NCBI GenBank assembly: GCA_030599585.1
Contig: JAUVNS010000005.1
Span: 96,001-160,000, forward strand
Reading direction: 5' to 3'
Length of the DNA stretch: 64,000 bases
Source: Promethearchaeota archaeon
Lineage (GTDB): Archaea; Asgardarchaeota; Lokiarchaeia; Sigyniarchaeales; SOKP01
The translations under genes were made by a program, and so were the position numbers. Position 1 is the first letter of the stretch, and every line of letters begins with the position of its first letter. Shown here one piece after another: positions 771 to 26,363 of the stretch. The notes under the pieces were generated by a model. That model was not told the DNA's origin, made no database searches, and was given only the letters and a program-made list of their open reading frames with translations.

Positions 771-1961
771 ATGGCGTTCGATGAAATTAGTAAAAAATTG
801 GCCCAACTAATGAAGGAAACAGAAGAAATTGAACTGCAAGATGTAGAACTCTTTGCCGAATACTTAGAATTTCAAATGCTACCTGGTATTATTCAATCTG
901 CAGCACAAGCAGTTCTTCCTGGTATCGGAAAAGCAGAATGGACACCAACAAAATTTTCTCTCGACTTGGATTTTCCGGGACAAATTGAAACTGTCGAATT
1001 TATACGTTCTAACGGAAAGAAAGCAACAATCGGTGGAGAAAAGGTACCTCCGTTCTATAACTTCCTGGGGCTTGATAAAAGAAACCCAAACCCCCCTCTC
1101 GTTACATACGATGTATTCGATATGGGCTCTAAAATGATGTTACCAAAACCTATTAAGAAAGAGTACGGAGAAGTCTTAGGGGATCCCGCAGAATGGGCTA
1201 AATTAGCGGTTAATAAATTTGGCGCAGAAAGTATAACTTTCCACTCTCTAGAAATCGATCCTGGAATGGGCGACGCACCTGTTTCTCAATCTCTAAAATA
1301 TTTAGAAGATATATTGCAAGCAGTTGATGTTCCGGTCATTATTGGTTGTTCGGGAAATAAAGAAAAGGATGTAGAGTTATTTAAAGTCACTGCGGCTGCT
1401 ACTGAAAGCGAAGTATTGATGCTTTCTGCTGCAGACAAAGCTACATGGGAGGAAGTAATTCCATTAGCAGTTAAATACGATCACAATTGCTTGCTATGGA
1501 CGAGTTTGGATTTAAACAACCAAATAAAAATGAACAAAGACGCTCTAGAACTGGGACTCCCTAAAAATAGAATAGTTATGGATCCAACTTGCGCTACATT
1601 GGGCTACGGTATGGAATACTCGTTCAGCATTTATCAAAGAATGCGGATCGCTGGATTGTTGGGAGAAACTGACCTAGCATATCCAATCAGTGGTGGTACA
1701 ACTAACGCATGGGGTGCTCGTGAAGCTTGGATGAGCGAAAAAGTAGCGCCTCAATGGGGGAAGAGAGAGTACCGAGGACCAATTTGGGAAATTATTAATG
1801 CTTTAAGTTTAACTCTTGTAGGCTTAGATCTTGCTATGATGTTCCATCCTATAGCCGCTAAACACGTTAAGGAAATAACAAGTCAATTCTTTGCAGAAAT
1901 TCCTAAACACTTAGAAGGTAAAGGTTATTACGACTGGGTTTCAGCAAGAATTAAGAAATAG
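771..1961 (+). CDS. cdhD: Acetyl-CoA decarbonylase/synthase delta subunit (corrinoid Fe-S protein small subunit)
   Basis: IGGEKVPPFY, DPAEWAK, VDVPVIIGCSGNKEKD, MDPT..LGYGMEYS, AWGAREAW motifs. Confidence 0.92.
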   Translation: MAFDEISKKLAQLMKETEEIELQDVELFAEYLEFQMLPGIIQSAAQAVLPGIGKAEWTPTKFSLDLDFPGQIETVEFIRSNGKKATIGGEKVPPFYNFLGLDKRNPNPPLVTYDVFDMGSKMMLPKPIKKEYGEVLGDPAEWAKLAVNKFGAESITFHSLEIDPGMGDAPVSQSLKYLEDILQAVDVPVIIGCSGNKEKDVELFKVTAAATESEVLMLSAADKATWEEVIPLAVKYDHNCLLWTSLDLNNQIKMNKDALELGLPKNRIVMDPTCATLGYGMEYSFSIYQRMRIAGLLGETDLAYPISGGTTNAWGAREAWMSEKVAPQWGKREYRGPIWEIINALSLTLVGLDLAMMFHPIAAKHVKEITSQFFAEIPKHLEGKGYYDWVSARIKK

Positions 1962-25836: not shown

Positions 25837-25924
25837 ATAAATCTTCAACTTAGAGTTAATCTACTCTTAATATATCTTATAATGTATACTTTAAAAACAT
25901 TATTTATAAGAAAATAACAAAATC

Positions 25925-26123
25925 AGTGATAATCATTAACCACATTTACGATTCCGGGTTCGGATGGTACCGGGTACTATCCTGAATTACCATGACCGTA
26001 GCCGAAGCTACAGTTTGCAAGTTCCCATAGATTTTCAACTACAGTACTATCTGCAACGCAAAACAGTTTAACTTCCGGCGTTGTAGCTAATTGCTACGAG
26101 ATTATGTGGTTAAAACTATCACT
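25925..26123 (-). repeat. Inverted repeat flanking the 5S gene (candidate processing stem)
   Basis: Arms 26104-26123 and 25925-25945 pair over about 20 bp; the mismatches are G-U pairs only on the minus strand. Confidence 0.75.
25952..26078 (-). rRNA. rrf: 5S rRNA gene, circularly permuted (canonical nt 46-117, UUCG linker, canonical nt 1-51)
   Basis: The re-ordered 117-nt sequence folds into 5S helices I-V, with loop C CCAUCCGAAC, the helix III AA bulge, loop E AGUA/GAA and a GAAA-capped helix IV. Confidence 0.9.
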
Positions 26124-26363
26124 AACAACCATTTTATAACTTTGGCTATATTATCGTAAAATGCTTCATTTATATGGTTGTAAGTAATAGGAATAGTACA
26201 AGCTAGTAATTAAACTTTTTCATAATAAATCGTTAAACTTAAAAGACTATATATTGAATTGTTAGTTTTCTACATATCCCTTAAGATTTTTTTTATATGT
26301 ACTCATCTTATAAATAATTAAAAATAAGCATATGATTAAAAAGCTAAAACTCAAATATTTATT

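What the first reader, a model, noticed from the sequence alone, without database searches (positions are those of the whole stretch)
25952..26078. Circularly permuted 5S rRNA gene in an archaeal chromosome
Seen: the minus strand reads CCGGAAGUUAAAC...CUGUAGC (26078-26007), then UUCG (26006-26003), then GCUACGG...CCAUCCGAACCCGGAA (26002-25952). The 3' half of 5S therefore precedes the 5' half. Swapping the blocks gives GCUACGGUCAUGGUAAUUCAGGAUAGUACCCGGUACCAUCCGAACCCGGAAGUUAAACUGUUUUGCGUUGCAGAUAGUACUGUAGUUGAAAAUCUAUGGGAACUUGCAAACUGUAGC (117 nt). This has helix I (GCUACGGU/ACUGUAGC), helix II, helix III with its AA bulge, loop C, helix V, loop E AGUA/GAA and GAAA-capped helix IV. The normally free ends of helix I are closed by the very stable C(UUCG)G tetraloop. 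Known: permuted 5S genes occur in some mitochondria and permuted tRNA genes in some archaea and algae; I know of no archaeal chromosomal permuted 5S. Inference: this is an evolved, functional gene that standard rRNA finders would miss or split.
Basis: partly seen in the sequence, partly recalled or inferred. Interest (0 to 1): 0.97.

Follow-up and report, generated by a model that had tools for sequence, protein, structure and literature searches.

The report
Back-to-front 5S rRNA gene, ring-forming
This Loki-type Asgard archaeon encodes its only 5S ribosomal RNA with the back half first, between cut signals of the tRNA-splicing enzyme, so a working 5S most likely arises by cutting the transcript and joining it into a 121-base ring.

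Summary
On the minus strand, 26072-26007 is the 3' part of a 5S rRNA, 26006-26003 is a UUCG loop closing helix I, and 26002-25952 is the 5' part.

- **Standard tools miss it.** Rfam finds nothing at its cut-off.
- **The re-ordered sequence is a 5S.** It aligns end to end with a profile of canonical 5S genes from a sister family. All five helices show compensatory changes.
- **It is the only 5S candidate.** The 4.85-Mb genome holds no other.
- **It is widespread.** The same layout occurs once per genome in 119 of 135 species of the family, and in at least 14 further families of the phylum.
- **The ends form a bulge-helix-bulge (BHB) motif.** Cutting at the canonical positions and joining restores helix III exactly.
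- **The enzymes are present.** Two splicing-endonuclease genes and RtcB are encoded.
- **Relatives vary as expected for a ring.** Some break the gene at other points, and some carry 30-nt BHB introns.

No RNA data could be obtained, so the ring is inferred. No paper in the searchable library describes it. The closest precedent is the permuted, circular SRP RNA of Thermoproteus. This scan has noted the same thing before on other Asgard genomes.

The parts
26131..26180 (-). Conserved upstream palindrome (AACCAUAUAA ... UUAUAAAAUGGUU) holding two TATA-like boxes. It is a candidate promoter region; the transcription start was not determined.
   Evidence: Sequence. The same block is conserved in genus relatives and in other genera. 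The promoter role is inferred.
26104..26123 (-). 5' arm of the outer processing stem (AGUGAUAGUUUUAACCACAU).
   Evidence: It pairs with 25945-25925 in the minimum-free-energy fold of the precursor (-69.7 kcal/mol, z -5.78). The arms change together across species: ACCACAU/AUGUGGU, ACCAUAU/AUAUGGU, ACCACAAAA/UUUUGUGGU.
26083..26097 (-). Leader hairpin GUAGC-AAUUA-GCUAC between the outer stem and the BHB motif.
   Evidence: Predicted. Relatives keep a hairpin here with other sequences, such as GUGC...GCAC and UAGC...GCUA.
26079..26081 (-). BHB flanking helix h1, 5' strand (ACG).
   Evidence: It pairs with CGU at 25950-25948. All four h1 columns show compensatory changes in 27 species.
26075..26078 (-). 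BHB central 4-bp helix, leader strand (CCGG).
   Evidence: It pairs with CCGG at 25957-25954. The second pair is C-G in 19 species and U-A in 8.
26072..26074 (-). BHB bulge 1 (AAG). The predicted cut lies between 26073 and 26072, so G26072 becomes the 5' end of the excised RNA.
   Evidence: The cut position follows the canonical rule (after the second bulge base), which I take from established knowledge of archaeal tRNA introns.
26007..26072 (-). 3' portion of 5S: the 3' strands of lower helix III and helix II, then helix V, loop E, helix IV with a GAAA loop, and the 3' strand of helix I.
   Evidence: HMM positions 47-116. Rfam partial hit. Covariation.
26003..26006 (-). UUCG tetraloop closing helix I where a normal 5S has its free ends.
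   Evidence: The loop is 4 nt in 53 of 53 species of the family, and UUCG in 28 of them. The three pairs next to the loop all show compensatory changes.
25952..26002 (-). 5' portion of 5S: the 5' strand of helix I, loop A, the 5' strand of helix II, helix III with loop C, ending in CCCGGAA.
   Evidence: HMM positions 3-51. Rfam hit to model positions 27-51 at 25952-25975.
25954..25957 (-). BHB central helix, 3' strand (CCGG). The same bases are the 3' strand of upper helix III in the finished RNA.
   Evidence: Column 132 covaries with both the leader (column 6) and the helix III 5' strand (column 114).
25951..25953 (-). BHB bulge 2 (AAU). The predicted cut lies between 25952 and 25951, so A25952 becomes the 3' end of the excised RNA.
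   Evidence: Joining A25952 to G26072 gives ...CCCGGAA|GUUAAAC..., the normal 5S helix III sequence, in a circle of 121 nt.
25948..25950 (-). BHB flanking helix h1, 3' strand (CGU).
25925..25945 (-). 3' arm of the outer processing stem (AUGUGGUUAAUGAUUAUCACU).
25909..25922 (-). T-rich run (UUUUGUUAUUUUCUU), a candidate archaeal terminator.
   Evidence: Sequence. The terminator role is inferred.

Best explanation
This is the organism's only 5S rRNA gene, written in circularly permuted order: 3' part, then a UUCG loop that caps helix I, then the 5' part. It is transcribed as a precursor of roughly 200 nt whose flanks pair. The pairing gives a 20-bp outer stem, a leader hairpin and, next to the gene ends, a BHB motif. 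In that motif the leader CCGG pairs with the CCGG at the 3' end of the gene. Each strand is followed by a 3-nt bulge (AAG, AAU), and a short helix ACG/CGU closes the motif. The tRNA-splicing endonuclease cuts after the second base of each bulge, and RtcB joins the two ends. That restores helix III and yields a covalently closed 121-nt 5S rRNA. I think the ring itself is the form that enters the ribosome, because helix I is capped by a constant 4-nt loop with nothing to trim.

Shown here: the permuted order, the 5S identity, the covariation, the motif, the exact restoration of the sequence in silico, the presence of the enzymes, and the wide conservation.

Inferred: transcription, cutting, joining, and that the ring is the mature form.
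For: **5S identity**
- End-to-end match of the re-ordered sequence to a canonical 5S profile (31.4 bits, E 9e-11).
- 97% pairing and 16 compensatory pairs in the 5S structure. The model-fitted 53-species alignment agrees.

**Sole gene**
- No other RF00001 hit in a 4.85-Mb, 100%-complete assembly.
- One hit of the permuted model in this genome, as in nearly every family genome with a hit.
- The canonical hits in family genomes G014 and G073 lie beside bacterial 23S rRNA.

**Conservation**
- 119 of 135 species and 12 of 13 genera of the family.
- Full-length hits in 31 genomes of 14 other families of the phylum.
- By family, these are mutually exclusive with canonical 5S hits.

**BHB motif**
- 93.1% of cells paired against 78.5% in shuffles. 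Covariation 0.468 against 0.170 (0 of 500). Slid controls at or below 0.16.
- The rival pairing of the leader with the 5' strand of helix III shows only wobble changes.
- Re-pairing leaders and trailers across species drops pairing from 7.61 to 6.10 of 8 (0 of 2000).
- In other families the flanking helix is 7-15 bp and directly abuts the 4-bp helix and the 3-nt bulges.

**The cut rule gives the right product**
- In 53 species, the circles are 119-122 nt, or about 30 nt longer per intron. The junction always reads as normal 5S.

**The break point moves**
- 43 genes break after the AA bulge of helix III, and 10 break at the start of loop C.
- Both types occur in each of three genera and give nearly identical products.
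- A third break point, in loop B, occurs in another family.
- This is expected if the ends are joined.

**5S precursors are splicing substrates**
- In 16 of 16 longer genes, the excision that best restores a 5S has a fully paired 4-bp BHB central helix (15 of 16) or ranks just ahead of one that does (L097). The excised piece is 29-31 nt.

**Enzymes**
- Two EndA-family ORFs and one RtcB.

**Precedents**
- The permuted SRP RNA gene of Thermoproteus gives a functional circular RNA through the splicing endonuclease (PMC4731332).
- E. coli tolerates a 5S whose native ends are joined by a tetraloop (PMC7283268).
Against: - No RNA evidence was obtained.
- A scan of metagenome contigs for the joined junction found only canonical 5S genes of unrelated archaea.
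- In this family the flanking helix h1 is only 3-4 bp.
- The bulge on the leader strand can also be read as the native 2-nt AA bulge of helix III followed by G-C, so the motif is a relaxed BHB.
- Energy-based folding of the precursor prefers pairing the leader CCGG with the 5' strand of helix III, because CCGG is a palindrome.
- The literature states that archaeal 5S, unlike 16S and 23S, is not circularised in the species studied (PMC12918454).
- Related species are not independent, so shuffle counts overstate significance.
Confidence: 0.62

Rival explanations
1. The ring is only an intermediate. After cutting and joining, an unknown nuclease opens the loop that caps helix I. The ribosome then receives an ordinary linear 5S with ends at helix I, as happens with the permuted tRNA genes of Cyanidioschyzon.
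For: Permuted tRNA genes work this way (cited in PMC4267664). Circular 16S and 23S precursors are generally thought to be re-opened (PMC12918454). Nothing in my data excludes a cut in the loop.
Against: - The linker is a bare 4-nt loop in 53 of 53 species of the family, mostly of the stable UNCG type. No spacer or recognisable processing element is present.
- Compensatory changes run right up to the loop-closing pair.
- In other classes helix I is lengthened to as much as 12 bp under the loop. That fits a permanent hairpin better than a trimmed end.
- A tetraloop-closed helix I is functional in E. coli.
Confidence: 0.18
2. The mature 5S is linear and permuted. The precursor is trimmed or cut at the motif but never joined. 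Helix III is held together by base pairing alone, with a nick after the AA bulge, as in the permuted mitochondrial 5S of brown algae.
For: Brown-algal mitochondrial 5S is permuted in the final product (PMC4267664). My evidence for ligation is indirect.
Against: - Ends made by the splicing endonuclease are the natural substrate of RtcB, which is encoded.
- The nick would leave upper helix III and loop C attached by only 4-6 base pairs.
- Closely related species of one genus would carry the nick at different places (types A and B).
- In the Thermoproteus SRP RNA case the ends are ligated.
Confidence: 0.12
3. The locus is a dead or silent relic, or an assembly artefact, and the ribosomes use a canonical 5S that was not assembled.
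For: rRNA genes are often missing from metagenome bins. This assembly has 52 contigs and 8.9% estimated contamination.
Against: - The layout is found in 119 of 135 independently assembled species, with one hit per genome in nearly all (three have a second hit), unique flanks and covarying stems.
- Single-contig genomes of the family carry it (G084, G085). At E<=0.01 their only 5S-family matches are sub-threshold and lie at that same locus.
- Selection keeps all five helices and the loop motifs.
- The only canonical hits in the family are bacterial contaminants.
Confidence: 0.02

Closest known systems
Permuted, circular SRP RNA of Thermoproteus tenax (Plagens et al. 2015, eLife, PMC4731332)
   Same: A structured, essential non-coding RNA gene in an archaeal chromosome is circularly permuted. 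[quoted passage not shown] I propose the same logic here.
   Different: The RNA here is ribosomal 5S rather than SRP RNA. That case is confined to a few Thermoproteus species, whereas this layout spans a whole family of 135 species and at least 14 other families of the phylum. Here the break point differs between relatives, and extra BHB introns occur. The circle is experimentally shown there and only inferred here.
Circularly permuted tRNA genes (Cyanidioschyzon merolae, Soma et al. 2007; also Thermofilum pendens, from my own knowledge)
   Same: The 3' half is encoded before the 5' half. A BHB motif at the ends leads to a circular intermediate (as cited in PMC4267664).
   Different: In tRNAs the linker between the native ends is removed, so the mature RNA is linear. 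Here the linker is a 4-nt tetraloop with no visible processing signal.
Circular pre-16S/pre-23S rRNA and circular or permuted mature 23S rRNA in archaea (PMC12918454; Pyrococcus furiosus, PMC7758197)
   Same: A processing stem with a BHB motif flanks an rRNA, which is then excised and ligated by the tRNA-splicing machinery.
   Different: Those genes are in normal order, and any permutation arises at the RNA level. 5S is explicitly stated not to take part. Here the gene itself is permuted, and ligation is needed to rebuild an internal helix.
Permuted mitochondrial 5S rRNA of brown algae (Valach et al. 2014, PMC4267664; Rfam mtPerm-5S)
   Same: Helix I is a closed hairpin instead of an open-ended helix.
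   Different: That RNA is organellar. Its ends sit at the three-way junction, there is no BHB motif and no ligation, and the final RNA is linear. Here the break is in helix III or loop C, and the ends are predicted to be joined.
Engineered circularly permuted 5S in E. coli (Huang et al. 2020, PMC7283268)
   Same: The native 5S ends are joined by a tetraloop and new ends are opened in an apical loop. Cells are viable.
   Different: That construct is artificial and is fused into 23S rRNA. It has no circle and no splicing.

Membership tests
5S rRNA (Rfam RF00001) | Scores above the family's gathering cut-off (38 bits) with the covariance model | tested here: not met
   The native order gives no hit at the gathering threshold. 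It gives two fragments of 16.5 and 14.7 bits. The re-ordered sequence could not be given to Infernal with these tools.
5S rRNA (Rfam RF00001) | Full-length sequence homology to canonical 5S once the two blocks are swapped | tested here: met
   I ran nhmmer with a profile of ten canonical-order 5S genes (nine of sister family f2, one of f4). The window's product matches positions 4-114 at 31.4 bits, E 9e-11. All 37 intron-free products match end to end at 27.5-60.7 bits.
5S rRNA (Rfam RF00001) | Three-way junction with helices I-V supported by compensatory changes | tested here: met
   97.0% of cells are paired. Sixteen of 34 pairs carry changes on both sides, and five of the six helix segments scored (all but the 2-bp lower part of helix III) have at least two such pairs. 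The 53-species alignment agrees.
5S rRNA (Rfam RF00001) | Conserved loop motifs (loop A CAU, loop C CCAUCCGAAC, loop E AGUA/GAA) | tested here: met
   The motifs are read directly. Loop C and helix III match model positions 27-51 with posterior 1.0.
5S rRNA (Rfam RF00001) | Present in the large ribosomal subunit | not testable with these tools
   This needs RNA from purified ribosomes.
Permuted RNA genes restored by splicing-endonuclease circularisation (tRNA, SRP RNA) | The 3' part is encoded upstream of the 5' part, and the native ends are linked | tested here: met
   two swapped partial hits, with a 4-nt linker.
Permuted RNA genes restored by splicing-endonuclease circularisation (tRNA, SRP RNA) | The gene termini form a BHB motif: a 4-bp helix, two 3-nt bulges on opposite strands, and a flanking helix | tested here: met
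   - Window: ACG-CCGG-AAG and CCGG-AAU-CGU.
- Covariation 0.468 against 0.170.
- 35 of 36 distinct contexts have at least 7 of 8 pairs.
- Other families have flanking helices of 7-15 bp.
- In this family the motif is relaxed: the flanking helix is short, and the inner helix is the native helix III.
Permuted RNA genes restored by splicing-endonuclease circularisation (tRNA, SRP RNA) | Cutting at the canonical bulge positions and joining gives the uninterrupted functional sequence | tested here: met
   In silico, in 53 species, the junction reads as normal helix III or loop C. Circles are 119-122 nt, plus about 30 nt per intron.
Permuted RNA genes restored by splicing-endonuclease circularisation (tRNA, SRP RNA) | Splicing endonuclease and RtcB ligase are encoded | tested here: met
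   PF01974 hits of 97.7 and 73.0 bits in two ORFs of about 200 aa. PF01139 hit of 567 bits.
Permuted RNA genes restored by splicing-endonuclease circularisation (tRNA, SRP RNA) | Junction-spanning or circular RNA is detected | not testable with these tools
The metagenome scan for the junction found only unrelated canonical genes.
Permuted mitochondrial 5S (mtPerm-5S) | The ends lie at the junction of domains alpha and gamma, and the product is linear | tested here: not met
   The break here is in helix III (window) or loop C or loop B (relatives), with a BHB motif. No match to that Rfam family was listed.

The most novel reading that the evidence does not exclude
In many lineages of Asgard archaea, including this family of about 135 Lokiarchaeial species, the mature ribosomal 5S rRNA is a covalently closed circle made by the tRNA-splicing machinery. 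Because the ends are joined, the place where the gene is broken is selectively neutral. Gene termini and BHB introns are then interchangeable. That would explain the three break points and the several intron sites seen among relatives.
Probability: 0.55. Interest if true: 0.9.

Novelty: new variant of a known kind. Interest (0 to 1): 0.86.

Why it matters
5S rRNA is a universal ribosome part, and its gene is assumed to be trivially recognisable. If this reading holds:

- A core ribosomal RNA of many lineages of the closest archaeal relatives of eukaryotes can only be made by RNA splicing. It would be the first natural circular 5S.
- It explains why 5S genes appear to be missing from Asgard genomes. 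None of the roughly 135 genomes of this family has an archaeal 5S above the Rfam cut-off. That also makes them fail the usual 'high-quality draft' criterion, which asks for 5S.
- It extends the moonlighting of the tRNA-splicing enzymes from tRNA, SRP RNA and 16S/23S precursors to 5S.
- The shifting break points and mini-introns offer a natural experiment on how permuted genes arise.

In practice, a permuted covariance model such as R1 would let annotation pipelines find these genes.

Tried and rejected
- **Read evidence.** I did not try to get round this.
- **Metagenome scan for the joined junction.** The pattern spanned both break points. It returned seven hits, all ordinary canonical-order 5S genes on large contigs of about 45% G+C from unrelated archaea. 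This is uninformative.
- **Unconstrained search for BHB-like patterns around the gene.** It picked spurious A+T-rich pairings. Such motifs are easy to find by chance in these flanks. I therefore fixed the leader position from the 5S alignment and judged the motif by covariation.
- **MAFFT alignment of intron-bearing genes.** It misaligned the 3' ends. I used intron-free sets and a covariance model instead.
- **Single-sequence folding.**
  - The circle is not distinctive (z -1.59).
  - The precursor fold prefers an alternative pairing of the palindromic CCGG.
  - I rejected that pairing as the conserved one, because it shows only wobble changes.
- **Canonical 5S hits in family genomes G014 and G073.** I rejected these as the archaeon's own, because each lies directly after a bacterial 23S rRNA.
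- **Borderline RF00001 hit in G255.** It is the 5' half of a permuted gene plus flank.
- **Literature.** Six searches found no description of an archaeal permuted or circular 5S.

Full report
**What is there**

Read on the minus strand, the interval holds these parts in order:
- a leader copy of CCGGAA (26078-26073);
- the 3' two-thirds of a 5S rRNA (26072-26007), starting with GUUAAAC;
- a UUCG loop (26006-26003);
- the 5' third (26002-25952), ending in CCCGGAA.

Rfam at its curated thresholds reports nothing in the whole 64-kb window. At permissive thresholds it reports two 5S fragments of 16.5 and 14.7 bits in swapped order.

**Is it a 5S?**

I could not feed a re-ordered sequence to Infernal. 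I therefore built a profile HMM from ten canonical-order 5S genes (nine from sister family f2, one from f4), which score 53-69 bits with RF00001 for f2.
- The re-ordered window sequence aligns over profile positions 4-114 (31.4 bits, E 9e-11).
- All 37 intron-free products from relatives do the same (27.5-60.7 bits).
- The native order gives two partial hits, with positions 47-116 upstream of 3-51.

On a plain MAFFT alignment of 27 species (A6), the 5S secondary structure written in permuted order is well supported:
- It pairs in 97.0% of cells, against 82.9% in shuffles.
- Sixteen pairs carry compensatory changes.
- The covariation score is 0.427 against 0.150 (0 of 500), and slid controls stay at or below 0.076.

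A model-fitted alignment of 53 species agrees. The three helix I pairs next to the loop vary by compensation, for example C-G 22, G-C 18 and A-U 9 at the closing pair. Helix I is therefore selected as a closed hairpin.

**Is it the working gene?**

The window's genome has 4.85 Mb in 52 contigs, with completeness 100% and contamination 8.9%. It has no other match to RF00001, even at E 10. It has exactly one match to my permuted model R1.
- R1 finds a match in 119 of 135 species-level genomes of the family and in 12 of 13 genera, once per genome in nearly all (three genomes have a second hit). This includes single-contig genomes.
- Across the family, only two genomes have a canonical 5S above the cut-off.
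- Both of those hits lie directly after a bacterial 23S rRNA, so they are contaminant contigs.

A pattern built from this gene's conserved blocks in permuted order matched 87 loci in the genome collection. Their record titles are almost all 'Promethearchaeota/Promethearchaeia archaeon' MAGs such as Loki_b31 and Loki_b32. In NCBI taxonomy that phylum belongs to the Asgard kingdom Promethearchaeati.

**The ends**

The flanks pair. The precursor 26123-25925 folds at -69.7 kcal/mol (z -5.78) with a 20-bp outer stem and a leader hairpin.

Next to the gene ends I read a BHB motif:
- Leader: ACG, CCGG, AAG.
- Trailer: CCGG, AAU, CGU.

That is a 4-bp helix, a 3-nt bulge 3' of it on each strand, and a closing helix. 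The established rule for archaeal introns is a cut after the second bulge base. I checked that rule here on introns in relatives (see below). Under it, the excised RNA runs from G26072 to A25952. Joining the ends gives ...CCCGGAA|GUUAAAC..., which is the normal helix III with its AA bulge, in a 121-nt circle.

Covariation supports this pairing on alignment A6:
- The eight pairs of the motif are paired in 93.1% of cells, against 78.5% in shuffles.
- The covariation score is 0.468 against 0.170 (0 of 500), and slid controls stay at or below 0.16.
- All four closing-helix pairs, and one central pair (C-G 19, U-A 8), change by compensation.

RNAalifold and the single-sequence fold prefer another pairing, leader CCGG with the 5' strand of helix III. 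That pairing shows only wobble changes and no signal above shuffles. Swapping leaders and trailers between species lowers pairing from 7.61 to 6.10 of 8 (0 of 2000).

In this family the motif is relaxed. The closing helix is only 3-4 bp, and the inner helix is the native helix III. The genome encodes two EndA-family proteins of about 200 aa and one RtcB. From my own knowledge, archaea with two different endonuclease subunits accept relaxed motifs.

**Relatives add three independent arguments**

*1. The layout is far wider than the family.* In a draw of 151 genomes of the phylum:
- R1 gives full-length hits in 24 of 25 family members.
- It also gives full-length hits in 31 genomes of 14 other families.
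- RF00001 passes its cut-off in seven families (f2, f12, f15, f17, f21, f30, f31); the f30 hit (G255, 38.4 bits) is the 5' half of a permuted gene plus flank. Apart from it, no family shows both states.

I read 16 of the outside loci. They have the same order. Most have textbook motifs, with closing helices of 7-15 bp abutting the 4-bp helix and 3-nt bulges, and circles of 120-129 nt. Canonical genes of the sister family have a TATA box about 25 nt upstream and a T-run right after the gene, and no processing stem.

*2. The break point moves.* Among 53 species of the family:
- 43 break after the AA bulge of helix III (type A, as here).
- 10 break at the start of loop C (type B).
- Both types occur in each of three genera.
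- Both give products of the same length and nearly the same sequence.

A genome of another family breaks in loop B. A drifting break point is what one expects if the ends are joined. It is awkward if a nick stays in the RNA.

*3. Sixteen genes are about 30 nt (one about 60 nt) longer.* In each, among some 400-600 candidate excisions, the one that best restores a 5S has a fully paired 4-bp BHB central helix (15 of 16) or ranks just ahead of one that does (L097). Most also have a paired inner helix and AA-starting bulges. The excised piece is 29-31 nt, and the scored excisions fall at three sites: loop C, the helix IV strand and the helix IV loop. A second insert, in helix I of L093, was read by eye only. 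Their spliced products equal the intron-free sequences of close relatives. So 5S precursors in this group are substrates of the splicing machinery, and the cut rule I used is validated internally.

**What the mature form is**

The linker across the native ends is 4 nt in 53 of 53 species of the family. It is UUCG in 28, and otherwise mostly other UNCG or YNNG loops. In other classes helix I is simply longer under its loop. No spacer or processing element is present. This favours a permanent cap and hence a circular mature 5S. An engineered E. coli 5S with its native ends joined by a tetraloop supports viability (PMC7283268).

I have no RNA data. A metagenome scan for the joined junction found only unrelated canonical genes. 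I therefore put about 0.6 on 'cut, joined, and the ring is the ribosomal 5S'. I put about 0.18 on a ring that is re-opened at helix I, and about 0.12 on an unligated, nicked molecule.

**Comparison with what is known**

The closest precedent is the permuted SRP RNA gene of Thermoproteus tenax. Its termini are cut by the splicing endonuclease and ligated into a functional circle (PMC4731332). I took this lead from earlier notes of this scan and checked the paper myself.

Other comparisons:
- Permuted tRNA genes use the same route, but the linker is trimmed off.
- Archaeal 16S and 23S precursors are circularised at BHB motifs, and 23S can stay circular. Those genes are in normal order, and 5S is stated not to take part (PMC12918454).
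- The permuted mitochondrial 5S of brown algae is linear, has its ends at the three-way junction and has no splicing motif.

Six literature searches found no archaeal permuted or circular 5S. The mechanism is of a known kind. Its application to 5S rRNA, its spread across a phylum, the moving break points and the introns in a 5S gene are new as far as I can tell.

**Earlier notes of this scan**

A word search returned eight notes and follow-up reports describing the same layout in other Asgard genomes, some claiming junction reads in environmental RNA. I could not check those claims and do not count them as evidence.

**A speculative origin (inference only)**

A tandem pair of 5S genes with a BHB intron in helix III would contain a unit made of the 3' part of copy 1 and the 5' part of copy 2. 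That unit would be flanked by intron halves able to re-form the motif. Shrinking the spacer to a tetraloop would give this gene. The sister family does keep tandem canonical copies. The same logic would let termini and introns trade places.

Noticed in passing
L041:1518-1682, L042:1518-1682, L078:1501-1664 (helix IV strand); L031, L033, L034, L039, L040, L089, L093, L101 (loop C); L094, L096, L097, L098 (helix IV loop); L093 also in helix I: About 30-nt inserts in the 5S genes of relatives have the form of BHB introns. An example is CUGC|AA^A|AGUGC...GCACU|GCAG|AA^U. Removing them by the canonical cut rule gives exactly the intron-free sequence of close relatives. I know of no described introns in 5S rRNA genes.
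   Followed up: partly
L043, L044, L088, L092, L095-L098, L100, L102 (type B); L013:~1420-1560 minus strand (loop B break): The permutation break point differs between relatives. The two types found within the family sit on either side of loop C, and both occur in each of three genera. A third break point, in loop B, occurs in another family. Products are nearly identical.
   Followed up: partly
window 26131-26180 (minus strand): A conserved palindrome upstream of the precursor (AACCAUAUAA...UUAUAAAAUGGUU) has a TATA-like box in each arm. It is kept in several genera of the family. It could be a promoter, a protein-binding site or another stem.
   Followed up: no
window 26083-26097 (minus strand): The leader hairpin GUAGC-AAUUA-GCUAC has the same stem as the top of helix I (GUAGC-UUCG-GCUAC). 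In other species the two stems differ, so this may be a relic or a coincidence.
   Followed up: no
L012 (G014:C263) and L105 (G073:C68): Two genomes of the family carry contigs with a bacterial 23S-5S operon. These are bin contamination that would be mistaken for the archaeon's own 5S.
   Followed up: yes
G032:C1:1399892-1400758 (L005); also G039:C66: The sister family keeps canonical 5S genes in tandem arrays (three copies about 375 bp apart). Each has its own TATA box and T-run.
   Followed up: partly
L082 (G124:C1), loop C region: The 31-nt loop-C insert of this gene contains a copy of the gene's own helix III 5' strand (GGAUAAUACCCGGUCCC). This suggests an origin by local duplication.
   Followed up: no
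families f8, f19, f26 and 12 of 13 genomes of f10 in the phylum draw: Neither the canonical Rfam model nor my permuted model finds a 5S in these genomes, although some are single-contig. Their 5S may be permuted at yet another point or may be more divergent.
   Followed up: no
G000:C24:165764-165988 and G000:C35:67256-67504: The window's genome has two separate EndA-family ORFs of about 200 aa. This is the arrangement linked (from my own knowledge) with tolerance of relaxed BHB motifs.
   Followed up: no
G019:C51:21554-21594: A second, partial hit of the permuted model (positions 27-67 only) lies on another contig of one genus relative. It may be a gene fragment.
   Followed up: no
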